64,000 bases of DNA from an uncultured Candidatus Saccharibacteria bacterium (GTDB lineage Bacteria; Patescibacteriota; Doudnabacteria; UBA920): the NCBI GenBank assembly GCA_964490395.1, contig CAZBAS010000001.1:211815-275814 (forward strand), read 5' to 3'. Both the position numbers and the translations under genes were made by a program. Under the pieces are notes generated by a model. That model did no database searches. It had not been told where the DNA came from and was given only the letters and a program-made list of their open reading frames with translations. This document shows positions 2,024-58,258 of the stretch, piece after piece (the first letter of the stretch is position 1; the number at the start of each line of letters is the position of its first letter).

Positions 2024-3133
2024 TTATGGCGCGAATCTAAAATGTACTACATCGCCGTCTTGGACAATGTACTCTTTTCCTTCTACGCGAAGCCAGCCTT
2101 TTTCTTTGGCACCTACGTAGCCATTTGCTTCAAGGAGTTTATCCCACTGAATAACTTCTGCGCGAATGAATCCTTTTTCAAAGTCAGTGTGAATCTTTCC
2201 TGCTGCTTGTGGTGCTTTGCTTCCCGCTGTACAGGTCCATGCTTTGCTTTCTTTTGGTCCTGCAGTAATGAAGGTTATAAGTCCGAGTGTTTTATACGCC
2301 GCGTGAATAATTTTATCCAGCCCGCTTTCCGGTAGTCCAAGCTCTTTTAAGTATTCGCCGCGCTCTTCATCGGACAACTCAGATAGCTCAGATTCGAGTT
2401 GGGCATCTATGGGTATGGCATCAGAAATTGAAAATTGCCCCCCCGAGGCGGGTCCGCCTTGGGCGGAGATATTGGAAATTCCAAACTGTTTTTTATCCAT
2501 ATCGTACGAGCTGTTCGCAATGTACATGAATGGCTTTAGAGTAAGCAGCTGTATATCCTTACTATTCGCTTTTTCTTCATCACTTAACTCTACGGTGTTG
2601 GCCATGTGTCCTGCTTCAAGCGCTGCTTTGTATTTTTCTAGAACAGCCTTTTTTATTACAAACTCGCGGTCACCACTTTTTGCTTGTTTGGCTACCGACT
2701 CTATGCGTTTGTCCACGGTTTGCAAGTCTGCCAGTTGGAGTTCAATGGCAATGGTTTCCATGTCACGCACCGGGTCTACATTTCCATTAACGTGAATAAT
2801 GTCATCGTTTTTAAACACGCGCACCACTTCCATAATGGCGTCGACTTCTCGAATGTGCGAAAGGAACTGGTTGCCTAGGCCCTCACCTTTGTGTGCACCA
2901 GAAACCAAACCCGCAATGTCTACAAATTCTATAGTAGTTGGAACTACCTTTTCGCTGTGTTCTAGCTGGGCTAGTTTTTCTAACCGCTCATCGGGTACGG
3001 CAACAACGCCCACGTTTGGGTCTATGGTGGCAAAGGGGTAGTTCGCTGCCTCTACTTTGCTTTTGGTAATAGCGTTAAACAGGGTGGATTTACCTACATT
3101 TGGGAGGCCAACAATTCCAATTTGAAAAGACAT
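2024..3133 (-). CDS. ychF: ribosome-binding ATPase YchF (Obg-family GTPase)
   Basis: MSFQIGIVGLPNVGKSTLFNAIT P-loop, DxxG, NxxD motifs, C-terminal TGS domain (YIVQDGDVVHFRF). Confidence 0.9.
   Translation of the reverse strand: MSFQIGIVGLPNVGKSTLFNAITKSKVEAANYPFATIDPNVGVVAVPDERLEKLAQLEHSEKVVPTTIEFVDIAGLVSGAHKGEGLGNQFLSHIREVDAIMEVVRVFKNDDIIHVNGNVDPVRDMETIAIELQLADLQTVDKRIESVAKQAKSGDREFVIKKAVLEKYKAALEAGHMANTVELSDEEKANSKDIQLLTLKPFMYIANSSYDMDKKQFGISNISAQGGPASGGQFSISDAIPIDAQLESELSELSDEERGEYLKELGLPESGLDKIIHAAYKTLGLITFITAGPKESKAWTCTAGSKAPQAAGKIHTDFEKGFIRAEVIQWDKLLEANGYVGAKEKGWLRVEGKEYIVQDGDVVHFRFAP
2424..2482. repeat. GC-hairpin composite repeat, copy 1 (inside ychF reading frame)
   Basis: gaaattgaaaattg-CCCCCCGAGGCGGGTCCGCCTTGGGCGGAG-atattggaaattcc; near-identical core at 49765-49795 and related core at 3164-3193. 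Confidence 0.7.
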
Positions 3134-3139
3134 ATATAG

Positions 3140-3208
3140 TAAGAAATTTCTAATATCTAATTTCCCCGCCCACGGCGTGTCCGCCTGGGGCGGATAATAT
3201 CTAATGTA
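3140..3208. repeat. GC-hairpin composite repeat, copy 2 (ychF/pmm divergent intergenic)
   Basis: aaatttctaatatctaatttcc-CCGCCCACGGCGTGTCCGCCTGGGGCGG-ataatatctaatgtaag. Confidence 0.6.
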
Positions 3209-3292
3209 AGAAAGATATGAGAAAGCTTTCCATATTGTAGCGGAGTCAGGGGGTTCTGGCTACCTCTAAGGGGGTGGTGTAGAATAGAGTAT

Positions 3293-4681: not shown

Positions 4682-4694
4682 TGTGCGAAGCGCA

Positions 4695-4806
4695 GAATTA
4701 TGAATTAAGAATTATAGAATTAGGAATAACGATTCACACTACCCCTTTCCCTATGGAAAGGGGTAGTTATTTCTTAGTTCATAATTCTATAATTCTTAAT
4801 TCATAC
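4695..4806. repeat. AT-rich palindromic element (GAATTATGAATTAAGAATTATAGAATTAGG ... inverted copy) enclosing a terminator-like hairpin
   Basis: Arms 4695-4731 and 4768-4806 are reverse complements; central hairpin acccctttccctatggaaaggggt; family members at 14108-14210, 14441-14472, 30637-30690, 50921-51030, 51262-51374, 62736-62826. Confidence 0.6.
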
Positions 4807-4822
4807 TTTTTTGCTTGCAAAA

Positions 4823-6802: not shown

Positions 6803-6840
6803 GTTCCTCTCCCCAGGCCTGGGGAGAGGCTAGGAGAGAG
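6803..6840. repeat. CTCTCCCCAGGCCTGGGGAGAGG hairpin repeat, copy 1 (3' flank of DUF559 gene)
   Basis: Perfect palindrome cctctccccaggcctggggagagg followed by ctaggagagagg; same core at 48759-48781; variant at 7195-7227. Confidence 0.65.
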
Positions 6841-7192
6841 GTCGAAATGCTTGCTGTTTGATTACTTCTAGTACTCCCGCAATGTTGCTATCTACATCAT
6901 TATTCCAGAAGTGTAATACTGCGTATCCATTCTTTTCTAAGTATGTTTGCTTATCTGCATCTTTCTGTTTCTCTATCATCTCGCTATGTTGGCCACCGTC
7001 TAGTTCTATAATTAGCTTTTTCTCGTTGCAGCAGAAGTCAGCTATGTAAGGCCCGATCGGAACTTGGCGTTTAAACTTGAAACCATAGAAACGATTGCCG
7101 CGTAGGTAGTACCATAGTTTGGTCTCCCAGGGTGTTTGAGCAGTTCGTAGCTTTTTAGCATTTTCTAGATATATATGGTGCTTACTGTACAT
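6830..7192 (-). CDS. DUF559 endonuclease domain protein (Vsr-like PD-(D/E)xK fold)
   Basis: QVPIGPYIADFCCNEKKLIIELDGGQH and YAVLHFWNNDV motifs typical of DUF559; ORF extends to 7234 but the N-terminal 14 codons are read through the hairpin repeat, so the Met at 7192 is the likelier start. Confidence 0.65.
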   Translation of the reverse strand: MYSKHHIYLENAKKLRTAQTPWETKLWYYLRGNRFYGFKFKRQVPIGPYIADFCCNEKKLIIELDGGQHSEMIEKQKDADKQTYLEKNGYAVLHFWNNDVDSNIAGVLEVIKQQAFRPLS

Positions 7193-7194
7193 AC

Positions 7195-7227
7195 ACCTCT
7201 CCCAGCCCTCTCCAGGCAGGAGAGGGG
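7195..7227. repeat. hairpin repeat variant, copy 2 (5' flank of DUF559 gene)
   Basis: cctctcccagccctctccaggcaggagagggg: imperfect palindrome related to 6806-6830. Confidence 0.5.
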
Positions 7228-7236
7228 AATACATAA

Positions 7237-9657: not shown

Positions 9658-11337
9658 CTATACTTCAACAATTACCGGCAAGACCAGTGGCCTCCGATTG
9701 GTTTTTTGAAAAAGATAATCGCCTATGTGGGTGGTTATGTGTTCGCGCATGGTGTGCTTGTCTAACTGTGGGTCGCTGCATAGTTTCTTTACTTCGTGTT
9801 GTACTTCACGAATAATGTGCTCGTTACCTTTTACGTACATGAAACCGCGAGATACTATGGTTGGTTCGGTTACGAGTTTTCCCGTTGCTGTATTAAGGCT
9901 GGCGATAATGGTCACCATGCCTCCTGTGCGCATCTGTTCTTGGTCGTGAATCGTGTTCTGCTCAAGTACTGCATGGCCTATGTCATCTACATACATACGC
10001 TCAGCGGGTGCCACGCCTTTCTCTACTGTTGCGTTTCCGTTTGGGTGGAACACCACGGCATCTCCATTGTACGGAAGGAGTGCGGGTATGCCTAAACTGT
10101 TCGCAATTTTTGCATGAGCAGCAATCATGTGTCGCTCGCCATGTATGGGAATGAGGTGCTTTGGCTTCACCAGTCCCATCATGGTTTTATGCTCCTCCCT
10201 TTTTGCGTGGCCAGAAACGTGTATGTCGAGTGTGCCATTGTACACAACCTCTACGCCTTGCCGTTGCAGGTTCGACACCATACCGTAAAGAGCTGGTTCA
10301 TTTCCGGGGATGGGGTTCGCGGATACGACTGCAGTATCGCCGGGCTTTAGACTAATGCGGGGAAAGTCCCCACGTGCCATACGGGGGAGGCCTGAGCGCT
10401 CCTCGCCCTGTGCACCTGTGGTGAGAATGACCAGTCTGTGGTCTGGGATTTTACTTCGCATTCTACTGTCTATAAGTACATCTGCATCTACTTGCAGGTA
10501 ACCAAGTTGCATAGCAGTTTCAACATTTTGCGATATAGATCTGCCAGCGGTTATAACTTTGCGGTGGTACTTTTTCGCCGTGTCGAATACTCTTTGAATG
10601 CGCGGAAAGAGCTGCGAGTTACAGGTAAATATTATTCTCCCTGCGGCCCCTTGGAATACCGTATCTATGGTTGCGCTCAGTGTTTGTTCGGACGCAGTGT
10701 ACCCGCTACTTCCTGCATTGGTAGAATCGGAAAGCAATGCGAGTACGTTTCCTACTCCTCCCCAGAGTGCTAATTTATCTATTTCTGCTGGTGCTTCGTT
10801 TACGGGCGTCCAGTCAAACTTCCAATCGCCTGTGTGAATAACGCGGCCTAGTGGCGTAGAGATGGATACACCAATGGCGTCGGGTATGTTGTGATTGACT
10901 CGGTAAAATTCCACCGTACATTTTCCGAACTTCAGAACGTCATCTGGATGAATGGTGTGAATGCGTGCCGTGTGTTCAAGTCCGAACTCTTCTAAGCGTC
11001 TCGTAAGCAGGCCTGCAGTAAGCGGCATGGTGTAGATGGGTGGGTTCCCAATGTGAGGAAGTATATACCCTAAAGCACCAATGTGGTCTAAGTGGGCATG
11101 GGTCACCAGGATAGCGCGTATGCGTTCTTTGTGCTGGGTGAGCCAAGTGTAGTTCGGTAACATGTAATGTACAGATGGCATGCTTGGGCCGGGAAAACCA
11201 AAGCCAGCATCGACCACAATAAGGTCCTCGCCATATTCGTATACAGTCATGTTAATGCCAATTTCTTCTACGCCGCCAATGGTAATAATGCGTAATGGGG
11301 TTTCTTTCATATATGCAGACGCACCTAAGCTACGCAT
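9658..11337 (-). CDS. rnj: ribonuclease J (metallo-beta-lactamase/beta-CASP RNase), paralog 1
   Basis: VTHAHLDHIGALGY motif II, beta-CASP region, RNase J C-terminal domain; probable start at MKETPLRIITIGG (11310). Confidence 0.85.
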   Translation of the reverse strand: MRSLGASAYMKETPLRIITIGGVEEIGINMTVYEYGEDLIVVDAGFGFPGPSMPSVHYMLPNYTWLTQHKERIRAILVTHAHLDHIGALGYILPHIGNPPIYTMPLTAGLLTRRLEEFGLEHTARIHTIHPDDVLKFGKCTVEFYRVNHNIPDAIGVSISTPLGRVIHTGDWKFDWTPVNEAPAEIDKLALWGGVGNVLALLSDSTNAGSSGYTASEQTLSATIDTVFQGAAGRIIFTCNSQLFPRIQRVFDTAKKYHRKVITAGRSISQNVETAMQLGYLQVDADVLIDSRMRSKIPDHRLVILTTGAQGEERSGLPRMARGDFPRISLKPGDTAVVSANPIPGNEPALYGMVSNLQRQGVEVVYNGTLDIHVSGHAKREEHKTMMGLVKPKHLIPIHGERHMIAAHAKIANSLGIPALLPYNGDAVVFHPNGNATVEKGVAPAERMYVDDIGHAVLEQNTIHDQEQMRTGGMVTIIASLNTATGKLVTEPTIVSRGFMYVKGNEHIIREVQHEVKKLCSDPQLDKHTMREHITTHIGDYLFQKTNRRPLVLPVIVEV

Positions 11338-11552
11338 GCAAAAAAGCTTTGCATAACTTGGAACGCAATCGAATTAGTTATTAGGAAGGGTTGCTGTAGT
11401 AGTGACTTGTGCAGTCGACCACTGAGAGCGGTGTCGCACGGCATGTGGGCCTGCGAAAAGTATGTTTGATAACACTGTATATGCGTGCTAGCAATCAAAT
11501 AGTAACAACATTGGGTCCCTAATATTTGACTGATAGCAACATGTTTTGGGTG

Positions 11553-11656
11553 TAAGTGACAAAAGTTAAAAAAGTGACAAAAATGACAAAAGTAAAGAGA
11601 TAGCTCCGGAATATTTTTGTCATTTTTATTTATTTTTGTTCACTTTTGTCACTTAC
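11553..11656. repeat. TGACAAAA imperfect palindromic element, copy 1 (upstream of rnj paralog 1)
   Basis: gtaagtgacaaaagttaaaaaagtgacaaaaatgacaaaag ... ttttgtcatttttatttatttttgttcacttttgtcacttac; second copy at 58259-58348. Confidence 0.65.
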
Positions 11657-11680
11657 AGGAGGCACCCTTGGTGCGTATGT

Positions 11681-13576
11681 TTACACTTCTATAACCACTG
11701 GCAAGACCATGGGACGTCTGTTTGTCTTTTCAAATAAGTATTCGCCAATTTGGTCTCGAACGGCTTGGCGAAGGTAGGCATAGTTTGGCTCTACTTTTTC
11801 GCCAGATTTGCTTTCGCAAATTTTGCGCACCTCGTGCTTTACTTCCCTGAGGATGTCTTCGTTGCCCTTCATGTAAATAAAACCACGAGAAATTATATCT
11901 GGTTCGCTTATGAGCTTGCTTGTTTTGCGGTCGAGCGAGACTATGACCACAAACATACCGTCTTGAGACATGACTTGGCGGTCGCGAAGCACTACCTCTC
12001 CGACATCGCCAACTCCAAGACCATCTACATAAATGTAGCCAGCTTGCACTTTGGTGTCGAGGCGCTTTGCCTGACCAGCAGAGTTAAACTCAAGAACTGC
12101 ACCATTGTCTAAGGCAAATGTATTGTCTTCGGGTATACCTACGCTTTGGGCAATTTTGTTGTGCGCGACTAACATATGGTGTTCGCCGTGTATCGGAACA
12201 AAATACCGAGGTTTGGTAAGACCAAACATCATTTTTAGTTCTTCTTGTTGGGCGTGGCCAGATGCGTGAATGTCCAGTGTCTTATTGTAAATTACCTCAG
12301 CGCCTTGGCGGGTAAGATTGTCGAGTACTTCTACAACCGACCGTTCGTTTCCAGGAATAGGGGAAGCAGACACAACTACGGTGTCGCCAAGTTTTATGTG
12401 AATAGTTTTGTGCTCACCGCGAGATATGCGTGCAAGCGCAGAGGATTCTTCTCCCTGAGAGCCTGTAGTCAAAACAACTACTTGGTTCTCGGAGAACTTA
12501 GCCATGTCTTCCGATTTGATGAAAATTTTTGGTTGAATATGTAAATAGCCCATAGACAATGCTATTTCTATGGCATTTACCATGGAGCGGCCGGTAACCA
12601 CTATTTTTCGATTGTGCTTTGCTGCAGCATCGCACACCGATTGGATACGTGAAATAAGCTGGGAGAATGTGGCAAAGAGTATTCTGCCTTTTGCTTCTTG
12701 AAATATGTGATCGATTTTTTTAGAAAGCTCTTGTTCTGAAACGCAGTATCCTGGTTTGAGAGCATTGGTAGAGTCGCTCATAAGGAGCAGTACGCCCTCA
12801 CCACCAAACCGAGCAATTTTTTCGAATTCCGTTGGAAGGCCATCCATAGGAGTATGATCAAATTTCCAATCAGTAGCGTACATAACGTTACCAACAGGAG
12901 TTTTGATGCGAAGACCAATACAGTCCGGAATGTTGTGGTTTAAACGGAAAAAATCAACTGTAAAACAGCCGAGTTGTATGCTGGCGTCTTTGTCTATTGC
13001 ATGCAGTCGTGTGCGAGAAGCTAAGTTAAACTCCTCAAGTCGTTTCTTTATAAGACCAGCCGAAAGCGGCATGGTATAAATAGGCGGGTCACCAAGCTTG
13101 GTGAGCACGTAGGGGATTGCCCCTATGTGATCCAGGTGAGCATGGGTTACAAAGAGCCCGCGAATTTTTTTCTTGTTTTCTTCTAGATAATTAATATCGG
13201 GAATAATATAGTCTACTCCCGGCATGGTTTCATCTGGAAATGCCAAGCCCATGTCAACGATAATAATATCGTCGCCATATTCAAAGACCGTACAGTTTAT
13301 GCCCACTTCTTCTACGCCTCCTAAAGGAATAACGCGAAGGGTAGTGCGGCTTTGCGTGTACTGGCTTGTGGCCGGTGCAAGGCTAGGTTTTGTTAAGGTT
13401 GTGCGATCCATGGGCCTGCTCTGAGCAATCCCAGGGCGACTTGGGTTGGTACTGGGTCGGCTTTGTGCTGAACTAGGGGTGTTGCGGTTAAAATTTCTGC
13501 GAGGGCCGTTTTGGCTGCCTGGCGCCCCCATGGGACGTCGTGGCATAGATCCGGACGGAATATTCTTTCTCATCAT
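11681..13576 (-). CDS. rnj: ribonuclease J paralog 2 with ~90 aa low-complexity N-terminal extension
   Basis: VTHAHLDHIGAIPY, same domain order as paralog 1; N-terminus rich in P/S/R/N/Q. Confidence 0.85.
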   Translation of the reverse strand: MMRKNIPSGSMPRRPMGAPGSQNGPRRNFNRNTPSSAQSRPSTNPSRPGIAQSRPMDRTTLTKPSLAPATSQYTQSRTTLRVIPLGGVEEVGINCTVFEYGDDIIIVDMGLAFPDETMPGVDYIIPDINYLEENKKKIRGLFVTHAHLDHIGAIPYVLTKLGDPPIYTMPLSAGLIKKRLEEFNLASRTRLHAIDKDASIQLGCFTVDFFRLNHNIPDCIGLRIKTPVGNVMYATDWKFDHTPMDGLPTEFEKIARFGGEGVLLLMSDSTNALKPGYCVSEQELSKKIDHIFQEAKGRILFATFSQLISRIQSVCDAAAKHNRKIVVTGRSMVNAIEIALSMGYLHIQPKIFIKSEDMAKFSENQVVVLTTGSQGEESSALARISRGEHKTIHIKLGDTVVVSASPIPGNERSVVEVLDNLTRQGAEVIYNKTLDIHASGHAQQEELKMMFGLTKPRYFVPIHGEHHMLVAHNKIAQSVGIPEDNTFALDNGAVLEFNSAGQAKRLDTKVQAGYIYVDGLGVGDVGEVVLRDRQVMSQDGMFVVIVSLDRKTSKLISEPDIISRGFIYMKGNEDILREVKHEVRKICESKSGEKVEPNYAYLRQAVRDQIGEYLFEKTNRRPMVLPVVIEV

Positions 13577-14107
13577 GTGAAGGTAGGGTAGTGGTCGGTT
13601 CTTGTATCTAGTTCTGACTGCTTCGTCAAAAATACATGTTCACGAGTTTCAGCAGACGCAAGAAACCGACGTACCTATTACTTATGGTTCCTACAAATTA
13701 CGAATGATTACAGATATACAAACAGTACTGTAGTAAAGTCTGTATTTCGTTGATGCCTATAAGTAATCGTGTGTATCGTAACGACAGGAAGACTTACCAA
13801 TACAGTATGCGTATATCTGTATGTATCTGTAATCTGTAGGCTCTATTGTTATCGTGCATTACAAACCAAAGGTTTGCTTTTTATGTAGATCTATCTGTGC
13901 GTGGCGTATTCGGCCGCCGCGATAGGTAATGTCCTGTCTCTAAAAAGAGGCCGGGCACAATTAACAAATCAAAAATAAAAAAGACTTTTTTAGAACTGAT
14001 TTGCCAACTGTTAGAAGTTGTTTTGATTTCTCACGAATTCAACGTACAAGCATTATAGCGCACCCCAACTTATTTGTCAAACAAAGATGGCTAAAAATGG
14101 CTTATGT

Positions 14108-14210
14108 ATAGGGAATAATGAATTACGAATTAAGAATTATGAATCGGAATCAAACACTCGATTTTATCTTGTGCATGATTCATTATTCTATATTCTTAAT
14201 TCTATTTCTG
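14108..14210. repeat. AT-rich inverted-repeat element (gaattacgaattaagaattatgaatc ... gattcattattctatattcttaattc)
   Basis: Arms are reverse complements; same family as 4695-4806. Confidence 0.55.
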
Positions 14211-19570: not shown

Positions 19571-21808
19571 CTACAGGCTTTTTTTAATTATTTCTGCTTT
19601 GGCTTTACCAACTAACTTTTCTAATTCTTCTAACTCTACTTCCTTTATTCTTGCTACTGAGCCAAACTTTAGTTTGAGGAGTTTTTTAGTTTTCGGGCCT
19701 ATGCCGGGGATGGTGTCGAGCGCAGATTTGGTCGCTTGTTTACTGCGAAGCTGGCGGTGGAAGGTTATACCAAAGCGGTGGGCTTCATCGCGTAGGCGCT
19801 GGAGTATCTGCAAGGCAAGTTCATCGTGACTAAGAATGATTGGTTCAGGGTTGTTAGGTAAAAATATTTCCTCAATGCGTTTTGCGAGGCCAATCATGGG
19901 AATAGCTGCTAGCTTAGAGCTGTTAGCTTCTAGTTCAGAGCCGTTATTGCTTTCTGCTTTTTCTTTCGCAGCTATCACTTCTGCCTGCGCTTCCAGCGCA
20001 GCGCTAAGCTGTCCTTTGCCACCATCTATAACTATTAAGTCCGGCCGCGGCCAGAGGTTTTGCCCCCCTCCTCTTGAGGAGGGGCTAGGGGAGGTCGTAG
20101 AGCTGTTTACTTTTTTGATCCGTTTACTATTTTTATCATCTGCTGTGACCCCCTCGAGCGCCCCCTCAAGAGGGGGAGGGCTCAGGTGCGCGAGTCTGCG
20201 AGTCAGTGTTTCCCGCATCATGGCAAAATCGTCCGGAGTGTCTTTGCTGCGGATTTTGAACTTACGATATTCTGACTTTGCTGGTTTGCCATCTATAAAC
20301 ACGACCATGCTGCCGACCGGGTTTGTTCCTTGGGTATTGGACATGTCGTAGCATTCAATGCGTCTGGGAAGCTCGGGCAGGCCCAGAAGCTTTTGAAGCT
20401 TTAGTAAGGCTTCGTGTAGTTTGTCTATATCTGTGGCGTCGCTTTCGAGCTGCTTGCGCACGCATTCCTCAGCGTTTAATTGTCCCAGTTTTATGAGTTG
20501 CAATAATTTTCCACGGTGGGGAATACTAATGGGGATACTCTTTCCTTTTCTTTGTGCAAGTAATTCAGTAATAAGTGAAAGTTCGGAAAGTGGGAACTGG
20601 GTGAAAATTTTATCAGGCAGGTCTGTGGTATCAGCGTAATACGTTTCCGAGAACGTTTGAATAATACGAGATTCCGTGTCTTGCTCTCCTCCTCTTGAGG
20701 AGGAGTTGGAGGAGGTCATAGAAACTTTTGATGTATTATTATGCTCTGCTACGACCTCACCTAGCCTCTCCTCAAGAGGAGAGGAACCAGACAAGATCGC
20801 TGGTGCGCCATACACAAAGTTTTCTTTGTCGGTGAGCCTACCGTCCCGTACTTTGAAAAGGTTTATGCAATACAGCCCACTTTGAATACCAAGTGAAATA
20901 AGATCGTAATTTACTTTGGTGGGGAACTGAGCTATTTGCCGCTCGTCTAGCAGCTCCAAAGCACGGAGCTGGTCGCGGAGCCTGGCTGCAAGCTCGAACC
21001 GGGTTTGTTCAGATGCTTCTTCCATGGCGCGCTGGACCTCTTGTTTTACTTCACGAGTCTTGCCATTTAAAAAGAGTTGTATGCGCTGCAAGTTTTTTTG
21101 ATACTCTTCAATGCTTATAGCTCCCACGCATATGCCAGGGCACCGATGTAGATGATAATAGAAACAGGGACGATTGCTAATTTCCGTGTTGGCGCAGTAG
21201 GGGAATATGCGGCGCACAAAATCGAGCGTCTCACGAATTTTGCGAACTGAAGAGTATGGCCCAAAGTACTGGTTATTTTTAGTGGGCGTGTGCAGAAGGG
21301 CATCTTCTGCAGCAGCTGCCCTTCTGGTCCCTGCTGCGGTTACGATTTTGCTCTTGACTTTCGACTTTATTATTTTCCGTTGGTGCTTGCCACTTCCCCA
21401 GGCAGCAGAAGGGTTTAAAAAGACTTGTAGCTCTCTATCTTCTTCAATTTTTCGCGCATAGCCTATTTGAGGGATTTGCGTGCCGTAGTCTATAACTATG
21501 AATGCATAGTTTTTGTCGTCTTTGAGTTTAATGTTGTACTTTGGCGAGTGTTTTTTTATGAGTGTGTTTTCCAGGAACAGCGCCTCTAGCTCGGTACGCG
21601 CAACTATGTAGTCTATGTCTCGTGCATCCTCTATTAAAAACGGCAACTGTGGTCGTTTATCCTGCCCAAAATACTGGCTTACGCGTTTGCGCAAGTCTTT
21701 GGCTTTGCCCACATATAAAACTAACCCAGCTGCATCTTTAAATAGATAGCACCCAGGGCTATGGGGAAAATGAGTAATTTGTTGCTTAAGTTCTGGCATT
21801 TGTGCCAT
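19571..21808 (-). CDS. uvrC: excinuclease ABC subunit C (UvrC) carrying two in-frame repeat-derived insertions
   Basis: GIY-YIG N-terminus (CYLFKDAAGLVLYVGKAKDLRKRVSQY), UvrBC, RNase H-like and C-terminal HhH domains; 745 aa versus ~600 typical. Confidence 0.9.
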   Translation of the reverse strand: MAQMPELKQQITHFPHSPGCYLFKDAAGLVLYVGKAKDLRKRVSQYFGQDKRPQLPFLIEDARDIDYIVARTELEALFLENTLIKKHSPKYNIKLKDDKNYAFIVIDYGTQIPQIGYARKIEEDRELQVFLNPSAAWGSGKHQRKIIKSKVKSKIVTAAGTRRAAAAEDALLHTPTKNNQYFGPYSSVRKIRETLDFVRRIFPYCANTEISNRPCFYYHLHRCPGICVGAISIEEYQKNLQRIQLFLNGKTREVKQEVQRAMEEASEQTRFELAARLRDQLRALELLDERQIAQFPTKVNYDLISLGIQSGLYCINLFKVRDGRLTDKENFVYGAPAILSGSSPLEERLGEVVAEHNNTSKVSMTSSNSSSRGGEQDTESRIIQTFSETYYADTTDLPDKIFTQFPLSELSLITELLAQRKGKSIPISIPHRGKLLQLIKLGQLNAEECVRKQLESDATDIDKLHEALLKLQKLLGLPELPRRIECYDMSNTQGTNPVGSMVVFIDGKPAKSEYRKFKIRSKDTPDDFAMMRETLTRRLAHLSPPPLEGALEGVTADDKNSKRIKKVNSSTTSPSPSSRGGGQNLWPRPDLIVIDGGKGQLSAALEAQAEVIAAKEKAESNNGSELEANSSKLAAIPMIGLAKRIEEIFLPNNPEPIILSHDELALQILQRLRDEAHRFGITFHRQLRSKQATKSALDTIPGIGPKTKKLLKLKFGSVARIKEVELEELEKLVGKAKAEIIKKSL
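20063..20180. repeat. ~115 bp palindromic element inserted in frame in uvrC, copy 1
   Basis: ccccctcctcttgaggaggggctaggggaggtcgtagag ... ctgctgtgaccccctcgagcgccccctcaagagggggaggg; encodes PPPLEGALEGV...SPSPSSRGGGQ. Confidence 0.65.
20684..20786. repeat. ~105 bp palindromic element inserted in frame in uvrC, copy 2
   Basis: ctctcctcctcttgaggaggagttggaggaggtcatagaaac ... ctgctacgacctcacctagcctctcctcaagaggagagg; encodes SSPLEERLGEVV...SSRGGEQ; termini are mutual reverse complements. Confidence 0.65.
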
Positions 21809-27677: not shown

Positions 27678-28028
27678 TTAATGATTTTTTAATTTACTAA
27701 TCATGGAATACAGCATTCTTTGGATTTCATCTAATGTTTTCTCTGCGTTAGTGCAGTCAATATTAGTGTATCGATTCTTACTAATAATGATCTGGGTTTC
27801 GAGTTCGGCTGCTGAGGCAATCGCAATGGAGAGAAATTGGATATACTCTGGCTTATGGCCTCGTCTGCTGCCTTCGGCGATATTTGAAGGAATTGAAATA
27901 GCGGCGCGCAGCATTTGGCTTACCAAAATATATAACTCATGCTTGGGGAGTTGGTCAGAGATTTTATAAATTTCATCAACTAAATTTATAGATTTCTGCC
28001 ACACTATCAAATCTTTAAATGATTGCAT
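27678..28028 (-). CDS. four-helix-bundle protein (family of 23S rRNA intervening-sequence proteins, TIGR02436-like)
   Basis: 116 aa; FKDLIVWQKSINLVDEIYKISDQLPKHELYILVSQMLRAAISIPSNIAEGSRRGHKPEYIQFLSIAIASAAELETQI is the characteristic pattern. Confidence 0.6.
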   Translation of the reverse strand: MQSFKDLIVWQKSINLVDEIYKISDQLPKHELYILVSQMLRAAISIPSNIAEGSRRGHKPEYIQFLSIAIASAAELETQIIISKNRYTNIDCTNAEKTLDEIQRMLYSMISKLKNH

Positions 28029-33256: not shown

Positions 33257-34408
33257 ATGGCTAACTATTACGACATTTTAGGGGTTTCAAAATCTGCTTC
33301 TGCAGATGAAATTAAGCGTGCCTACAGAAAAAAGGCGCACGAGTTTCATCCAGACAAGGGTAGTGGTAATGAAGCCAAGTTTAAAGAGGTGAACGAGGCG
33401 TACCAGGTGCTGTCCGACCAGGGCAAGCGCAGCCAGTATGATCGGTTCGGCGATAACTATCAGTCCGCCCAATCCGCCCAGGGCGGATGGGGCGGGCAAG
33501 CGGGCGGCGCTGGGTTTAACCCATTTGAAGGTTTCGGCGGGTTTGGTGGCCAGGGCGGAGTTGAGTTTGATTTAGGTGATATTTTTTCCGATATTTTTGG
33601 CGGGCGCGAACAACGCCAGACTCGCAGAACTCGTGGGGTGGATTTAGAAATGCCACTTACCATTAGTTTTGAAGAGGCGGTGCATGGTGTGACTAAATCT
33701 GTGACTATAGAAAAACAAGATAAGTGCCATGTCTGCCAAGGTAGTGGTGCTGCACCCGGCGCAAAAGTAGTAACGTGTCCTCAGTGTCATGGGCAGGGGC
33801 AAATTATTACACAACGTCGCACCGTGTTTGGTAATATGCAGTCTGCAAGTACGTGTGACCGGTGTGATGGAGATGGTAAAATACCCGAAACTCCATGCAG
33901 TGTATGTCATGGGGGTGGAATACTGCGACGGCCAAAGACTTTAGAAGTGAAGATTCCTGCCGGCATAGATAACGGACAGCGAGTGCGTATGCAAGGCGAG
34001 GGGGAAGTGGGGTACAGGGGGTCAAATCCAGGTGACCTATACATAACCATTCGCGTAACTCCCTCAAAAGAATTTGTTCGGGACGGCCACAACCTTCACA
34101 AAGAAGTGCCCATAAGTTTCATCCAAGCTTCTCTCGGAACAAAGCTAGACGTAAAAACAATAGACGGGAACATAGAGGTAAAAGTGCCAGCTGGTACGCA
34201 GCCCGGAACTATACTTAAAGTGACTGGCAAGGGCGTGCCAATTGTAAATTCTGGTCGGCATGGCGACTTACTCCTCACAGTGAGAGTGATTATCCCTCAC
34301 AAGCTTTCCAAGCAAGAAAAAGAACTTATAGAACAACTTGCCGCTCTGAATGGCGAATCCGTAGAAGTGAACAAAAGCTTCTGGGAAAACATAAAAGACA
34401 GCTTCTAG
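33257..34408 (+). CDS. dnaJ: molecular chaperone DnaJ
   Basis: J-domain YYDILGV...HPDK, G/F-rich region, four CxxCxGxG zinc repeats. Confidence 0.92.
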
Positions 34409-41916: not shown

Positions 41917-43182
41917 CTATACTAGTTGTTGAGTTGTGCTACGCAATTGTTTTACCAGATTGGTGAGCTGCTGAAGGGTGTAATTGAGCTCCGCTTTAGT
42001 CGTGTATTTTCCTAGGGTAAAACGAATACTTCCGCGCATATATGCGTCTGAAAGCCCGATTGCCTGGAGCACGTGGGATGGGTCTGTACTCTGCGAGGTG
42101 CAAGCACTACCCGTGGCCACAGCTATGTTGCATGCGTCCAGATAAATAACGAGCGCTTCTCCGTCTATGCCCGCAAACGAGACATTGATGTTGTTAGCCA
42201 AGCGGTGGGGGTGTTGTTTAAGGGCTTTGCTATCGCCAAGCTGAACGGCTGGGCCATTGAGTACGGTGTGGGGGATTACCTTTTGTACACGGGAAATGAA
42301 ATAATCGCGCAATACTTCTAGTCGCGCTACTTCTTTTTTTTGTTCTGTATGGGCAAGTGTGAGTGCTTTGGCGAAACCAACTACGCCTGGAACATTTTCA
42401 GTGCCGCTCCGTAAGTTTTTCTCTTGCCCACCACCATATATGATGGGTTCAAGATGCACTCCTTTTCGTACAAATAAACATCCGGTCTGCTTAGGACCAT
42501 AGAGTTTGCTGCCGTTGAGCGTAAGTAGGTCAACGTGAAGCTTTTGTACATCAACATCCAAATAGCCTCCTGCTTGGCAGGCGTCAGTGTGGAATAGAAT
42601 ATTGGTAGTCGGTTGTCGGTTGCCGGTAATCGGTTGCTTCGATCGCTTCGCGTTCTCCGTGCGGATAATTTTGCCAATCTCGGCAATGGGTTCTATGGTA
42701 CCAATTTCGTTGTTGGCATACATGAGACTTACCAGAAAAGTATCGGGGCGTATGGCCTTCTTAAGCTCGTCGAGCCTAAAAAAACCTTCGGAGTCCACGC
42801 CAATTTTGGTTACCGCAAAGCCTTGTTTTTCCAGTGCGTCTAGTGCATGTAGCACGGCGTGGTGCTCCATGGTAGAAGTAATAATATGCCCGCCAGACTT
42901 GTGATTATTCCGATAGCTATTCGCAGCACCTACAATAGCAAGATTAATGCTTTCGCTGCCTCCTGCAGTAAATACTATTTCATCTGGGCGGCAGTTCAGC
43001 ACAGCCGCAATGGAGCTGCGACAGCTTCTGAGAGCTTCCGCAGCGCCTAGGCCGAGCTTATACAATGCGGAAGGGTTGCCAAATTGCTTAGTCCAAAAAG
43101 GCGCCATTGCTTTAAGCACCTCAGGTCGTACTGGGGTCGTAGCAGCGTAGTCTAGGTAAATTTGTTTACGGTTCGACTTCAT
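41917..43182 (-). CDS. cysteine desulfurase (IscS/NifS family, PLP-dependent)
   Basis: YLDYAATTP, PLP-lysine region LNGSKLYGPKQTG, GSACTS active Cys; likely start MKSNRKQIYL. Confidence 0.88.
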   Translation of the reverse strand: MKSNRKQIYLDYAATTPVRPEVLKAMAPFWTKQFGNPSALYKLGLGAAEALRSCRSSIAAVLNCRPDEIVFTAGGSESINLAIVGAANSYRNNHKSGGHIITSTMEHHAVLHALDALEKQGFAVTKIGVDSEGFFRLDELKKAIRPDTFLVSLMYANNEIGTIEPIAEIGKIIRTENAKRSKQPITGNRQPTTNILFHTDACQAGGYLDVDVQKLHVDLLTLNGSKLYGPKQTGCLFVRKGVHLEPIIYGGGQEKNLRSGTENVPGVVGFAKALTLAHTEQKKEVARLEVLRDYFISRVQKVIPHTVLNGPAVQLGDSKALKQHPHRLANNINVSFAGIDGEALVIYLDACNIAVATGSACTSQSTDPSHVLQAIGLSDAYMRGSIRFTLGKYTTKAELNYTLQQLTNLVKQLRSTTQQLV

Positions 43183-43352
43183 ACTGGTTGATAATGGATA
43201 TGGAGTGTGCAAAGAGTAAGAGAAATTCCAAATCACACATAACAAGTTCCACATAAATTCCAACCCCCAAACTCATATGAGACTGTATTATCAAAAAATT
43301 GGCAATTGGATATTGGTAATTATGTATGGTATGGTGCTTGATGCTTGGGGCT

Positions 43353-48397: not shown

Positions 48398-48448
48398 TAC
48401 TGTCAGGATTACTTTTAAATTGTAATCCCGATGGTATGCTTTTTTTAT
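48398..48448. terminator. hairpin + T-run (gcatactgtcagg ... ggtatgcttttttt)
   Basis: Follows the small Cys-rich ORF; also abuts the CapA gene stop on the other strand. Confidence 0.4.
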
Positions 48449-49701
48449 TTGGATGCGGATGGACAACAGTTTTCTTTTATATAAAGCGGGAGTTCTTCTA
48501 TGCTTTGGATTGTAGTGATGGGTAGCTGAACGCCGCCTGACGGCTGGAGGTCGGAAATGGTTGCGCTGTTATTAATAGACGAAGTTTTCGGTATTGCGGC
48601 GGTTGGTTTGGTAAGGGTAATTTTAAGGGCAAGGCCTTTTTTAGTTTCCGCGCTCCAGTCTTGGTCAAAGATAAAATTTCCTAGAGAATAATAGATGGGT
48701 TTGCAATTGGGATTTCGGTTTATCTCTTGTGGTGTAGATTCGTTCGACCTCTCTCCATCTCTCCCCAGGCCTGGGGAGAGGGCCGGAGCCGAGCCGTTAT
48801 ACTCGGAAATCGTACTAGTTCTTGGGCAATATATTTCTTTATTTTGGACCCAGTGCGGGTGAGCGCCTATGACTATATCTGCACCAGCGTCTATGGCTGC
48901 ATGGGCAAAGTCTATTTGATCTTGGTTTGCTTTGGGGGTGTATTCTGTTCCGGCGTGCATAGTCACGACTAGGAAGTCGATTTTAGATTTCAGATTGTAG
49001 ATTGCAGATTTAAGACGCTCGACATCTTCAATTCGAGCTACATAACTATTTATAGTTTTACCGCCATCGTTTACAGAAGAATACGAAGCACCAATGAATC
49101 CTATTTTAATGCCATTCTTTTCTATAATGGCCGGAGTCCATGCTTCGTCGAGTGTTTTGCCAGTACCCATGTGCAGTAGTCCATTATCATTGAGCACTTT
49201 TTCAGTAGTAGTAATGCCGTCTAGTCCTTGGTCAAACGCATGATTGTTTGCAAGGTTCAGTACAGCAAAATTGTATTCTTTCAGGCCAGCGACATTTGTT
49301 TTGGGCGCGTTAAACACAAGTGTGTTTTTTGCAGTAAACGCATCGGTTTTTGAGAAGGGCGACTCAAGATTGGCAAAGTTAAAGTCAGAAGACTTGAGCA
49401 AGCCCACTATATTATGGAAAGGGTACAGAGGGTCTTTTTTTGCTTGTATGGTTGCGGCAACGCTTCGAGAAAGAGAGATATCGCCAAATGCTAAAAAGGT
49501 TACGGTGCTTGGTTGTTGCTGCGTAAGATTGGTTGCTGCTGCGTTCTGGCCTTGCGTATAAAAATCTTGAAATGACTTATCTTGGTTAGCAGCAGAATTG
49601 TGGGTAAGCGGTGAGCCGTGGTTAAGTTGAAAAACACCAAGTATAGTGGCGGCTATGACGACTATTAGTATGGGAGTGAAGACAAGGACTTTACGAGTCA
49701 T
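48445..49701 (-). CDS. CapA family protein (poly-gamma-glutamate/capsule biosynthesis metallophosphatase-like), N-terminal membrane anchor
   Basis: DFNFANLESPF, LANNHAFDQG, VTMHAGTEY, GAHPHWVQ, YSLGNFIFDQ; ORF opens at 49755, likely start MTRKVLVF. Confidence 0.8.
   Translation of the reverse strand: MTRKVLVFTPILIVVIAATILGVFQLNHGSPLTHNSAANQDKSFQDFYTQGQNAAATNLTQQQPSTVTFLAFGDISLSRSVAATIQAKKDPLYPFHNIVGLLKSSDFNFANLESPFSKTDAFTAKNTLVFNAPKTNVAGLKEYNFAVLNLANNHAFDQGLDGITTTEKVLNDNGLLHMGTGKTLDEAWTPAIIEKNGIKIGFIGASYSSVNDGGKTINSYVARIEDVERLKSAIYNLKSKIDFLVVTMHAGTEYTPKANQDQIDFAHAAIDAGADIVIGAHPHWVQNKEIYCPRTSTISEYNGSAPALSPGLGRDGERSNESTPQEINRNPNCKPIYYSLGNFIFDQDWSAETKKGLALKITLTKPTAAIPKTSSINNSATISDLQPSGGVQLPITTIQSIEELPLYIKENCCPSASK
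48748..48790. repeat. CTCTCCCCAGGCCTGGGGAGAGG hairpin repeat, copy 3 (in frame inside CapA gene)
   Basis: gacctctctccatctctccccaggcctggggagagggccggagc encoding ...APALSPGLGRDGERS... Confidence 0.65.
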
Positions 49702-49751
49702 GGCTTGGTAAGAAATGTCTAATAAAAAACAAATAGCCAATTCTGGTCCGG

Positions 49752-49822
49752 GCATTAGTAATTACCCGCCCAAGGCGGGTCCGCCTTGGGCGGAGATATT
49801 GGAAATTAGACATTAGGAATTG
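49752..49822. repeat. GC-hairpin composite repeat, copy 3 (capA-dprA spacer)
   Basis: gcattagtaattaCCCGCCCAAGGCGGGTCCGCCTTGGGCGGAGatattggaaattagacattaggaattg. Confidence 0.7.
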
Positions 49823-49832
49823 TATTCGCGTG

Positions 49833-50918
49833 CTACCGCACACGAATATACTGCTGTGCGCCAACATTTTTAATAACGCCTTTCATTTCCAAAAAACTGA
49901 GTGCAGTAGACACAGCTGCTGTTTCGAGTCCGGTTTGTTTTACTAGCGCATCGCTTGAGAGGGGGCTACTTGTTAGTATACCAAGAAGTAGTGCTTCTGT
50001 GGGGGTGGTGGCCGCTAACTCTGCGTCTATGGTAAGTTCGGGGCTAATGTTTAAGTCTTGCAAAATATCTGCTGCGTCGGTAACAGGCTGTGCTCCCATC
50101 TTGAGTAAATTATTTGGCCCTTGTGACTCATGCGCATAAATTTGCCCAGGCACCGCGTATACACGTCGGTTTTGCTCCAGTGCGTACTGGGCAGTTATGA
50201 GCGAGCCACTTTTAAGACTGCATTCTATAACAAGTGTGCCCATGGAAAGCCCAGAAATGATTCTGTTTCGAGCAATGAAGTTTTGTTTATACCCTGGTGT
50301 TCCTGGCGCGTATTCGCTCATGAGACAGCCACCCGCATTGAGGATCGCGTCCGCAAGGAGTACGTGCTCTTTGGGGTAGAGTGATTTTTCATCCAGTCCC
50401 GAGCCCAGTACTGCAATGGTAGGTAGCCCTTGTTCAATTGCTTGTGTGTGCACCAGCGCATCTACGCCATACGCCATACCAGACACAATCGTAATTCCTG
50501 CACTGACTAAGGGAGAGATGATGTGGGGGACGACACTCCGGCCATAGGTAGTAATTTTGCGCGTGCCAATTGCAGCAAGCATAATTGCGTCTGCGGCTGG
50601 CAGTGCTCCGCGGTAATATAAAATAACCGGAGGGTCGGCTATCTCTGTAAGAAGTTGCGGGTAGCGTCGGTCGCCGAGTGCGAGCACATGTATGCCCAAG
50701 GTGTGCAATGTTTCTTGCTCGTTCGCCGGAGAAATGGGCGTGCGGAAAGCGCTAAACTGCTCGGCAATGTCCAAGCTTATGCCTGCGCTGCATAGTTCAC
50801 CAATGGAAGCATTGAATGCTTGCTCAAATGTTTCAAAAAATTGGCTCAATACGAGCAGTCTTTTCGGGCCAAATTTTGGAAACAGGTTGAGGCAGTGGAG
50901 ATAGATGGTGTCATTCAT
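49833..50918 (-). CDS. dprA: DNA processing protein DprA (Smf)
   Basis: Rossmann-like core IVSGMAYGVDALVHTQAIEQGLPTIAVLGSGLD and C-terminal wH. Confidence 0.85.
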   Translation of the reverse strand: MNDTIYLHCLNLFPKFGPKRLLVLSQFFETFEQAFNASIGELCSAGISLDIAEQFSAFRTPISPANEQETLHTLGIHVLALGDRRYPQLLTEIADPPVILYYRGALPAADAIMLAAIGTRKITTYGRSVVPHIISPLVSAGITIVSGMAYGVDALVHTQAIEQGLPTIAVLGSGLDEKSLYPKEHVLLADAILNAGGCLMSEYAPGTPGYKQNFIARNRIISGLSMGTLVIECSLKSGSLITAQYALEQNRRVYAVPGQIYAHESQGPNNLLKMGAQPVTDAADILQDLNISPELTIDAELAATTPTEALLLGILTSSPLSSDALVKQTGLETAAVSTALSFLEMKGVIKNVGAQQYIRVR

Positions 50919-51257: not shown

Positions 51258-51261
51258 ATGT

Positions 51262-53667: not shown

Positions 53668-53677
53668 ATGGGTACAA

Positions 53678-53752: not shown

Positions 53753-53757
53753 ACGGA

Positions 53758-57815: not shown

Positions 57816-57816
57816 T

Positions 57817-57893: not shown

Positions 57894-57897
57894 CCCT

Positions 57898-58239: not shown

Positions 58240-58258
58240 TTTTGCAAATAACAAGTGT

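What the first reader, a model, noticed from the sequence alone, without database searches (positions are those of the whole stretch)
2424..2482. GC-hairpin repeat present in frame inside ychF, with two intergenic copies
The core CCCGAGGCGGGTCCGCCTTGGGCGGAG, made of two adjacent stem-loops (cccgcc/ggcggg and tccgcc/ggcgga), has AT-rich arms. It lies inside the YchF ORF, where on the coding strand it specifies ...FGISNISAQGGPASGGQFSISD... in the variable helical insert between the G-domain and the TGS domain. Near-identical cores occur at 49765-49795 and a diverged one at 3164-3193. A repeat shared between a housekeeping CDS and intergenic DNA is how Rickettsia palindromic elements behave, so this is a candidate for the same kind of in-frame insertion in this lineage.
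Basis: seen in the sequence. Interest (0 to 1): 0.65.

Follow-up and report, generated by a model that had tools for sequence, protein, structure and literature searches.

The report
Tiny palindromic insert inside ychF
A 30-base GC-rich palindrome sits in frame inside the housekeeping GTPase gene ychF of a Doudnabacteria (CPR) genome. It belongs to a small repeat family, apparently undescribed, that is spread across CPR bacteria and has entered many essential genes, almost always in the one reading frame that encodes a flexible Ser-Ala-Gly loop.

Summary
Window 2446-2480 matches 49773-49807 exactly over 35 nt (0 expected by chance), 48 nt match at 94%, and a diverged third copy lies at 3165-3194. 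In ychF (2024-3133, minus strand) the unit is exactly 30 nt (2438-2467), read as SAQGGPASGG. A near relative (L001) has the empty site ATT|CAA, with no target-site duplication. Another relative (L002-L007) has the filled site with its own stem-breaking mutation. The AT-rich "arms" in ychF are native coding sequence.

The core, YCCGCC-NNN-GGCGGR-TCCGCC-NNG-GGCGGA, occurs in many Patescibacteria/CPR phyla and in Omnitrophota. Of 200 copies from two independent scans, 92 lie inside ORFs of at least 200 aa (DnaK, SecA, AtpD, UvrA/B, DnaE, RecG and others). 85 of those 92 use one frame, [S/P]AxGG[S/P]AxGG (p = 5e-14 and 9e-20). About 90% of copies have no stop codon in any of the six frames. Flanks are TTT|core|AAA.

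Best reading: a selfish, non-autonomous palindromic mini-element that works like the Rickettsia palindromic elements (RPEs) and yeast mitochondrial GC clusters but belongs to neither family. How it moves is inferred, not shown. I found no description in the searched literature. The same YchF loop carries other, unrelated hairpin inserts in other Doudnabacteria.

The parts
2438..2467 (-). 30-nt GC-rich palindromic element inserted in frame in ychF. Coding strand: TCC GCC CAA GGC GGA CCC GCC TCG GGG GGG = S-A-Q-G-G-P-A-S-G-G. It is a decayed copy (one stem mismatch, GGC>GGG).
   Evidence: Exact 30-nt indel against the empty-site allele L001 (AAT ATT|CAA TTT); filled allele L002 carries a different stem mutation. 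35-nt exact match to 49773-49807. Fold no better than shuffled sequence.
2024..3133 (-). ychF (ribosome-binding ATPase YchF, 369 aa), the host gene. The reading frame is intact through the insert and the downstream TGS domain is conserved.
   Evidence: ORF. Homologues named YchF with PF01926/PF06071. E = 4e-120 to PDB 1jal YchF.
2468..2486 (-). Native AT-rich flank upstream of the insert in coding sense (TTT GGA ATT TCC AAT ATC). It is part of a CCAATNN heptad-like tract that forms this clade's YchF loop. 13 nt are identical to the flank of the intergenic copy.
   Evidence: Present in alleles without the core (L001, L132, L133). Identity to 49795-49807.
2415..2437 (-). Flank downstream of the insert in coding sense (CAA TTT TCA ATT TCT GAT GCC A). 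Heptad-like. It differs at 8 of 21 nt from the empty allele and is shared with the other filled allele (P>S, P>S, V>A).
49765..49794 (.). Intact intergenic copy (CCCGCC CAA GGCGGG TCCGCC TTG GGCGGA), between the start of a PGA_cap gene (48445-49755, minus strand) and the stop of dprA (49833-50918, minus strand).
   Evidence: Fold -17.1 kcal/mol, z = -6.5. Neighbouring genes.
49795..49825 (.). AT-rich heptad tract (GATATTG GAAATTAG ACATTAG GAATTG) into which the intergenic copy is set. The same tract family occurs at 43296-43321, 51347-51372 and 62800-62825, and inverted at 51255-51289 and 62729-62763.
   Evidence: D7, D11, D8, I5, I24, I25.
3165..3194 (.). Diverged intergenic copy (CCCGCC CAC GGCGTG TCCGCC TGG GGCGGA) in the divergent spacer between ychF and a phosphoglucomutase gene. 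It is set in a CTAATNT heptad tract and is absent from the same spacer in the close relative L002.
   Evidence: Fold -12.4 kcal/mol, z = -2.7.
33472..33488 (+). Possible half-element (single hairpin ATCCGCCCAGGGCGGAT) inside the Gly/Phe-rich region of dnaJ, read as Q-S-A-Q-G-G-W. It may be a remnant or a chance match in a Gly-rich region.

Best explanation
The feature is one copy of a very small (30 bp) GC-rich, nearly perfect palindrome that behaves as a selfish, non-autonomous mobile repeat.

Shown:
- In an ancestor shared by this genome and the L002 lineage, it was inserted precisely, with no target-site duplication, at ATT|CAA inside an already hypervariable surface loop of YchF.
- The family's usual site is TTT|AAA.
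- The insert is tolerated for three reasons: its length is a multiple of three, it carries no stop codon in any of the six frames, and in the frame used it adds ten small flexible residues (S-A-x-G-G-S/P-A-x-G-G, much like an engineered Gly-Ser linker).
- Selection removes copies in the other two frames (PPxADPPxAE, RxRRIRLxR). That is why more than 90% of copies inside genes across CPR bacteria use one frame.
- After insertion the hairpin is no longer maintained and decays by point mutation. The window copy has GGC>GGG, the L002 copy has GCC>ACC, and RecG copies show decayed and internally deleted forms.

Inferred, not shown:
- The element is moved in trans as a single-stranded hairpin by a host- or IS-encoded enzyme. 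An HUH/Y1 (RAYT- or IS200-like) transposase is the best guess, because those enzymes act on hairpins and leave no duplication.
- It spreads between lineages by DNA uptake and recombination.
For: - Exact 30-nt presence/absence between alleles that are 91-94% identical in DNA, with outgroups empty.
- 35-nt exact match to an intergenic copy, 0 expected by chance.
- The same core in many CPR phyla and in Omnitrophota.
- 35 of 77 copies (genome scan) and 57 of 123 copies (metagenome scan) lie inside ORFs of at least 200 aa. The genome-scan ORFs I read through are recognisable housekeeping genes: DnaG, UvrA, UvrB, DnaE, DnaK, SecA, AtpD and PGM.
- 33/35 and 52/57 of those use the [S/P]AxGG[S/P]AxGG frame, p = 5e-14 and 9e-20 against 1/3.
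- An AtpD carrying the insert aligns to PDB 2qe7_D with a clean 9-residue gap at the insert.
- 167 of 186 element instances have no stop in any of the six frames.
- Symmetric TTT|core|AAA flanks: T at 59%, 78% and 56% of positions -3, -2 and -1.
- The intact intergenic copy folds at z = -6.5, while the ychF copy is indistinguishable from shuffled sequence.
- Decayed and deleted derivatives occupy the RecG site.
- Other palindromes sit in coding sequence in the same window: UvrC with three copies, and PGA_cap with one copy that is an exact reverse-complement (palindromic) match to an intergenic copy.
Against: - No transposase of any kind lies in the 64-kb window (Pfam on 60 ORFs; tblastn with a Doudnabacteria Y1_Tnp), and no enzyme has been linked to the element. 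The mechanism is therefore a guess.
- The element lacks the GTAG/CGTC head of REP sequences mobilised by RAYT.
- Copy density here is low (3 in 64 kb).
- For this particular copy, the 13-nt flank identity with the intergenic copy, and a 3' flank haplotype shared by the two filled alleles, fit homology-driven copying as well as transposition.
- Four RecG lineages that are only 38-67% identical in protein carry intact copies at the identical site, with synonymous stem positions unchanged. A purely selfish insert-then-decay model does not predict this. It hints at targeting, allele transfer or some constraint.
- Translation through the insert is inferred from the intact frame, not observed.
Confidence: 0.8

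Rival explanations
1. This copy arose by ectopic gene conversion or template switching, with no transposase. The YchF loop of this clade is itself a CCAATNN heptad tract, like the intergenic tracts. A replication or repair strand switched to an intergenic tract that already carried the core (such as the one at 49.8 kb), copied the core and returned, using the heptad homology.
For: - 13 nt of flank (AATTTCCAATATC) are identical between the ychF and intergenic copies.
- The empty alleles already carry AATTTCCAATAT and a run of CCAATNN heptads.
- All three window copies, and those in L009 and L010, split a heptad at the same phase Y|YAATNN.
- The filled alleles differ from the empty one at 8 of 21 nt just 3' of the core.
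Against: - Elsewhere the core sits in DnaK, AtpD, SecA, UvrB and other genes with no heptad or other shared flank.
- Flanks in general are not heptad-periodic: period-7 self-match is 0.33 against a background of 0.26, and only 1 of 148 flanks is strongly periodic. The family therefore does not need flank homology.
- On the 3' side, similarity to the intergenic donor is only about 6-8 nt.
- 12 of the 13 identical flank bases are native to ychF.
Confidence: 0.2
2. The hairpin is a functional sequence kept by selection, not selfish DNA. Candidates are a protein-binding or DNA-uptake signal, or an RNA/DNA structure that modulates expression. Its presence in genes would then be a by-product of needing many copies.
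For: - Near-identical 30-mers occur across very distant phyla.
- Intact copies occupy the same RecG site in lineages 38-67% identical in protein, with synonymous stem positions conserved.
- CPR bacteria depend on DNA uptake (established knowledge).
- dprA lies next to the intergenic copy, which is probably coincidence.
Against: - The ychF copy is decaying, is absent from near relatives, and has lost its fold.
- The intergenic copy upstream of ychF is missing in L002.
- Density is about 1 per 20 kb, far below known uptake sequences (established knowledge: about 1 per kb).
- There is no T-tract 3' of the stem, as a terminator would need (flanks are T-rich 5' and A-rich 3').
- No Rfam family matches.
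- RecG copies decay and get deleted.
Confidence: 0.08
3. The segment is native, ancient YchF sequence, or a chance low-complexity match, or an assembly artefact.
For: The loop is Gly/Ser/Ala-rich and GC-rich, so weak matches could arise by chance. The data come from metagenome assemblies.
Against: - 35-nt exact match with 0 expected.
- Exact 30-nt indel against relatives, and empty outgroups.
- The filled allele is seen on 14 contigs from several samples.
- The element is found in assemblies from many unrelated studies.
- The frame bias implies selection acting on real genes.
Confidence: 0.02

Closest known systems
Rickettsia palindromic elements (RPE; Ogata et al. 2000, as summarised in PMC10969869)
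   Same: A palindromic repeat found both in intergenic DNA and in frame inside unrelated housekeeping genes. A conserved peptide is encoded and the host proteins stay intact. Insertions are lineage-specific. No transposase gene lies within the element.
   Different: RPEs are about 100-150 bp and confined to Rickettsia. This element is 30 bp, is found across many CPR phyla and Omnitrophota, and encodes only a ten-residue Gly/Ser/Ala linker. There is no sequence relationship.
Yeast mitochondrial GC clusters (in-frame inserts in var1; PMC8811140) and related mitochondrial hairpin elements (sponge RHE, PMC2800124)
   Same: Short GC-rich palindromes scattered in AT-rich spacers of a small genome. 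They are mobile, sometimes lie in frame in a protein gene (var1), have variable loops and conserved stems, and act as recombination hot spots.
   Different: Those are organellar. GC clusters usually carry AG/TAG terminal repeats that are read as target duplications, whereas here the flanks are TTT|AAA with no duplication. In Magnusiomyces the inserts are bypassed in translation, whereas here they are in frame and presumably translated.
REP / REPIN elements mobilised by RAYT (Y1 HUH) transposases (PMC3733652)
   Same: 20-40 nt imperfect GC-rich palindromes, often as inverted doublets that form a longer hairpin. They are non-autonomous, leave no target duplication, and move as single-stranded hairpins.
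   Different: REPs are by definition extragenic, carry a GTAG or CGTC head, are species-specific, and are flanked by or linked to a RAYT gene. This element is often inside genes, has no GTAG/CGTC, is nearly identical across phyla, and no RAYT was found near it.
Intragenic MITEs (ERIC, BOX, Nezha, Correia; PMC10969869)
   Same: Small non-autonomous repeats that can create in-frame fusions with host ORFs.
   Different: MITEs are 50-500 bp with terminal inverted repeats and target-site duplications derived from a parent IS. None of these features is present here.

Membership tests
Rickettsia palindromic elements (RPE) | Palindromic repeat present both in intergenic DNA and in frame within protein-coding genes | tested here: met
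   One copy in ychF and two intergenic copies in the window. 92 of 200 copies elsewhere lie inside ORFs of at least 200 aa.
Rickettsia palindromic elements (RPE) | Length about 100-150 bp, belonging to one of the RPE sequence families of Rickettsia | tested here: not met
   The unit is exactly 30 bp. The host is Doudnabacteria/CPR. Size as given in PMC10969869.
Rickettsia palindromic elements (RPE) | Encoded peptide lies at the protein surface and does not disrupt the fold | tested here: inconclusive
   Alignment to 1jal/8kie places the insert in a variable segment between two G-domain strands. The AlphaFold model was too poor to use (mean pLDDT 48.8). The AtpD insert aligns as a clean loop gap against 2qe7.
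REP/REPIN-RAYT | 20-40 nt imperfect GC-rich palindrome, often an inverted doublet forming a longer hairpin | tested here: met
   30-nt doublet of two 15-nt palindromes. Folds as a 12-bp hairpin, z = -6.5.
REP/REPIN-RAYT | Conserved GTAG or CGTC tetranucleotide at one end | tested here: not met
   Ends are YCCGCC...GGCGGA with TTT/AAA flanks. Criterion from PMC3733652 (abstract).
REP/REPIN-RAYT | Extragenic location | tested here: not met
   About 45% of copies are inside long ORFs.
REP/REPIN-RAYT | A RAYT (Y1_Tnp) gene in the same genome, typically flanked by the REPs | tested here: inconclusive
   None in the 64-kb window or in the loci held (L001-L131, which include the 8-kb loci around the genome-scan copies). 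A Y1_Tnp gene exists in another Doudnabacteria contig (L128) but is flanked by a different hairpin. The rest of this genome is not available.
MITE | Terminal inverted repeats plus target-site duplication, 50-500 bp | tested here: not met
   Filled versus empty site shows a clean 30-nt difference with no duplicated bases.
Yeast mitochondrial GC clusters | GC-rich palindromic cluster in AT-rich DNA, able to sit in frame in a coding gene | tested here: met
   Comparison with PMC8811140.
Yeast mitochondrial GC clusters | Terminal AG/TAG direct repeats (putative target duplication); mitochondrial host | tested here: not met
   Flanks are TTT|AAA without duplication. The host is bacterial.
DNA uptake sequences (USS/DUS) | Very high density (about 1 per kb) of one short motif in one taxon | tested here: not met
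   3 copies in 64 kb. The motif is shared across phyla.

The most novel reading that the evidence does not exclude
A previously undescribed mobile palindrome of only 30 bp, found across the CPR, has colonised dozens to hundreds of essential genes (replication, repair, secretion, ATP synthase, chaperones) as a natural Gly-Ser-type linker. It re-occupies identical sites in deeply diverged lineages (RecG), which implies either a site-directed or homing-like mechanism or an unknown sequence-level constraint. That would make it both a new class of minimal mobile DNA and a natural map of insertion-tolerant loops in core proteins.
Probability: 0.45. Interest if true: 0.85.

Novelty: new variant of a known kind. 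Interest (0 to 1): 0.7.

Why it matters
Repeats that enter housekeeping genes in frame are known from only a few systems, such as Rickettsia RPEs and yeast mitochondrial GC clusters. This one would be the smallest and the most widely distributed, spanning much of the Candidate Phyla Radiation.

It matters for four reasons:
- It gives a clean natural experiment on which protein loops tolerate a ten-residue linker and which reading frames are purged.
- It explains many small lineage-specific indels and "low-complexity" segments in CPR proteins that confuse alignments and annotation.
- It breaks assemblies: several copies lie at contig ends.
- It points to a mobilisation route not yet identified in organisms with tiny genomes and few recognised transposases.

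The recurrence at one RecG site in distant lineages is a concrete puzzle that can be tested with existing data.

Tried and rejected
- AlphaFold2 model of the window YchF from the 42-sequence alignment: mean pLDDT 48.8, unusable for placing the loop. I used the sequence alignment to 1jal/8kie instead.
- Search for a mobilising enzyme: tblastn with the Y1_Tnp protein of L128 found nothing in the window or in the loci held at that point, L001-L131. Pfam on 60 window ORFs found no transposase, integrase or HUH protein.
- Viral vector idea: the IMG/VR scan gave 13 hits. All but one are high-GC or unrelated coding matches, and none is a CPR-type copy.
- Known RNA families: Rfam found only three tRNAs in the window.
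- Idea that AT-rich heptad arms are part of the element everywhere: rejected. Flanks of 148 element ends are barely more period-7 than background, and only 1 is strongly periodic. The association holds only in this genome and in L009 and L010.
- Idea that the other YchF-loop inserts are demonstrable repeats: only the L131 insert has a second copy in the DNA held. The others are hairpin-forming but unproven as repeats.
- Look-up of the window's exact YchF protein: not on record, so the source sample is unknown.
- Literature: seven full-text searches, including the literal DNA and peptide strings, found no description of this element.
- High-GC hits of the pattern (Streptomyces, Nocardiopsis and others) lack the first hairpin, and several share one recurring coding context. 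I excluded loci above 56% GC from the genome-scan statistics. The metagenome statistics were not GC-filtered.

Full report
**What is in the window.** The window comes from a Candidatus Doudnabacteria (Patescibacteria/CPR) genome, judged from the names attached to its closest YchF homologues. ychF is the 369-codon ORF at 2024-3133 on the minus strand. The reported repeat is real. A 35-nt string at 2446-2480 recurs exactly at 49773-49807, with 0 matches expected in 100 shuffles. In register, 48 nt are 94% identical, and a third copy upstream of ychF is 69% identical. The exact core limits are 2438-2467, 49765-49794 and 3165-3194.

As single-stranded DNA, the intact intergenic copy is predicted to form one 12-bp hairpin (-17.1 kcal/mol, z = -6.5) rather than two short ones. 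The ychF copy folds no better than shuffled sequence (z = -1.2), and the upstream copy is intermediate (z = -2.7).

**Is it an insertion?** Yes. In an alignment of 42 close YchF proteins, only the window and P0001 carry SAQGGPASGG / SAQGGPTSGG. P0002, at about 95-97% identity, lacks exactly these ten residues, and so do P0003, P0008 and P0013.

At the DNA level:
- The window reads AAT ATC | TCC GCC CAA GGC GGA CCC GCC TCG GGG GGG | CAA TTT.
- L001 (P0002) reads AAT ATT | CAA TTT.
- L002 (P0001) reads AAT GTT | TCC GCC CAA GGC GGA CCC ACC TCG GGC GGG | CAA TTT.

So the difference is a clean 30 nt, in frame, with no duplicated target bases. Each filled allele carries its own stem-breaking substitution, which means the hairpin has been decaying since insertion. 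The filled allele occurs on 14 contigs from several sequencing runs, so it is not an assembly accident.

The three lineages form an unresolved trio. Pairwise DNA identity is 94.1% (window-L001), 91.0% (window-L002) and 91.3% (L001-L002), and shared-derived sites split 6/6/5. However, three of the six sites that unite the two filled alleles lie within 50 nt 3' of the insert. The filled alleles therefore share one local haplotype, which points to a single insertion event. Recombination, or a precise loss in L001, cannot be excluded. The outgroups (L132, L133) are empty, which favours gain.

**The "arms".** The AT-rich sequence around the ychF copy is present in the empty alleles too. In this clade the YchF loop is itself a run of CCAATNN heptads (AAAATTT CCAATAC CCAATTA CCAATTC CCAATGT in L132). 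This is the same kind of tract that fills many intergenic spacers of this genome. All three window copies, and copies in two other phyla (L009, L010), split a heptad at the same phase Y|YAAT. This does not hold for the family as a whole.

**The family.** In low-GC genomes the hits are a 30-nt unit, YCCGCC-NNN-GGCGGR-TCCGCC-NNG-GGCGGA. The hosts include Kaiser-, Portnoy-, Lipton-, Magasanik-, Sacchari-, Doudna-, Moran-, Buchanan-, Kerfeld-, Staskawicz- and Wildermuthbacteria, Microgenomates and Omnitrophota. Hits in high-GC actinobacteria lack the first hairpin, and several share one recurring coding context. I excluded loci above 56% GC from the genome-scan statistics.

- Of 77 CPR-type copies, 35 lie well inside ORFs of at least 200 aa.
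- The host ORFs I read through are recognisable housekeeping genes: DnaG, UvrA, UvrB, DnaE, two DnaK, two SecA, AtpD, Mfd, HsdR, ArsA, a P-type ATPase and PGM.
- 33 of the 35 are read as SAxGGSAxGG (p = 5e-14 against one third).
- A second, independent scan of metagenome contigs for the window's own subtype gave 123 copies. 57 are inside long ORFs, and 52 of those use the same frame (p = 9e-20).
- An AtpD carrying the insert aligns to a solved F1 beta subunit with a clean gap exactly at the insert.
- 167 of 186 element instances have no stop in any of the six frames.
- Flanks are symmetric and T-rich on the 5' side, A-rich on the 3' side (TTT|core|AAA).

**Mechanism.**

*Shown:* precise insertion without duplication, tolerance in one frame, decay afterwards, and wide distribution.

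*Inferred:* movement in trans as a hairpin. The absence of a duplication and the dependence on a hairpin fit HUH/Y1 (RAYT- or IS200-like) enzymes best. Against that, the element lacks the REP GTAG/CGTC head, no such gene lies in the window, and no co-occurrence could be tested.

For this particular copy, homology-guided copying from an intergenic heptad tract is a live alternative. The flank shares 13 identical nt with the intergenic copy, and the two filled alleles share a 3' haplotype.

A functional role (uptake signal, binding site, terminator) is unlikely. Density is low, the flank polarity is wrong for a terminator, there is no Rfam match, and the ychF copy is visibly decaying.

**An unexplained observation.** RecG proteins from four lineages that are only 38-67% identical carry intact copies at exactly the same site and in the same orientation. 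Every stem base is unchanged, including synonymous positions.

Among the 120 nearest RecG homologues of one of them, about 100 have no insert and about 13 scattered ones do, including decayed and internally deleted forms. The nearest relatives of the query lack it. All insert-bearing alleles share a distinct 3' flank, K..SK[ED]xVM instead of K..EK[DE]ETM.

This points to targeted re-insertion, to transfer of the insert plus flank by recombination, or to compensatory change. I could not decide between these.

**The YchF loop as a hot spot.** Other Doudnabacteria YchF proteins carry 10-40-residue inserts at the same loop. The four I read at DNA level are unrelated elements that form strong hairpins: a TIR-bounded 75-mer, a multi-hairpin 113-mer, two separate hairpins, and a 93-nt long hairpin. 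Only one of them has a second copy in the DNA I hold.

**Comparison and novelty.** The element works like Rickettsia RPEs (PMC10969869) and yeast mitochondrial GC clusters in var1 (PMC8811140). It fails the defining features of RPE (size, host), REP/RAYT (head motif, extragenic location), MITEs (TIR, TSD) and GC clusters (terminal repeats).

Seven full-text searches, including the literal sequence and peptide strings, found no description. The library does not cover subscription journals, so an earlier description cannot be ruled out. I rate it a new variant of a known kind.

Noticed in passing
window 19571-21808 (minus strand; uvrC), inserts at 20057-20101, 20678-20722 and 20749-20793: UvrC is 745 aa long and carries three in-frame copies (two orientations) of a different GC-rich palindrome (core CCTCCTCTTGAGGAGG). 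They are read as ...STTSPSPSSRGGGQN..., ...SMTSSNSSSRGGEQD... and ...LSGSSPLEERLGEVVA.... The two Pfam UvrC RNase-H domains are stretched by about 40-50 residues at these places.
   Followed up: partly
window 48759-48781 (inside the PGA_cap gene 48445-49755, minus strand) and 6806-6828 (intergenic): A 23-nt palindrome (CCTCTCCCCAGGCCTGGGGAGAG) at 6806-6828 (intergenic) is matched exactly, as its reverse complement, inside a coding gene at 48759-48781, where it reads ...ALSPGLGRD.... A related copy lies in the relative L002 at a different place (L002 5885-5924).
   Followed up: partly
window intergenic spacers, e.g. 4688-4816, 11551-11660, 14105-14205, 50924-51027, 51255-51372, 53676-53757, 57816-57897, 58243-58346, 58762-58851, 59290-59372, 62729-62825: Many spacers between genes hold an inverted repeat whose arms are built from 7-9-nt AT-rich units (GAATTAN, CYAATNN, AAAGTTNAT, GTGACAAAA), often around a short GC hairpin. 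Several arm families recur across the window. Their function is unknown (processing or termination sites?).
   Followed up: partly
L132 6001-7080, L133 130-1209, L001 794-1882 (ychF loop): In this Doudnabacteria clade the YchF loop itself (ISNTQLPIPNV) is encoded by four to five tandem CCAATNN heptads. That is the same unit as the intergenic arm tracts, which suggests the loop derives from an older invasion by such a tract.
   Followed up: partly
L147, L159, L249, L062 (RecG); proteins P0121-P0240: Intact copies of the 30-nt element occupy the identical RecG site (HGK[LM]|...|K..SKE.VM) in lineages 38-67% identical in protein. Most close homologues lack it, and some show decayed or internally deleted remnants. 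Insert-bearing alleles share a distinct 3' flank.
   Followed up: partly
L128 4148-4750: A 200-aa Y1_Tnp (IS200/RAYT-like) gene sits between RNase J and TrpRS in another Doudnabacteria contig, flanked by GGGGAATCC...GGATTCCCC hairpins. No equivalent gene is in the window at the syntenic place.
   Followed up: partly
L001 around 794-815 versus window 3121-3133; L002 9800-9976 versus window 3134-3292: Synteny with the closest relative breaks exactly at the ychF start, where a different upstream gene overlaps it. The ychF-PGM spacer, including the diverged element copy, is not conserved in L002, although the genes are about 91% identical. Spacers turn over much faster than genes.
   Followed up: partly
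L064, L068, L070 (Microgenomates WFRL01); L011, L047 (Omnitrophota JACPQZ01); L033: Several copies lie within a few bases of a locus end, so they may sit near contig ends. If so, the element (with neighbouring hairpins such as CCTGCCTGCCGGCAGGCAGG) is repeated often enough to break assemblies.
   Followed up: no
window 27678-28028 (minus strand); 6830-7234 (minus strand): A free-standing '23S rRNA intervening sequence protein' (PF05635) gene and a DUF559 endonuclease-like gene are present. 9658-11337 and 11681-13576 are two tandem RNase J paralogues.
   Followed up: no
window 41917-43263 (Aminotran_5), 59373-60617 (FtsA), 58309-58761 (S21): Pfam domains are split or stretched relative to their profiles. 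Aminotran_5 matches in two stretches, the FtsA domain takes 168 residues for 127 profile positions, and S21 has a 75-residue N-terminal extension. These may be further lineage-specific inserts.
   Followed up: no
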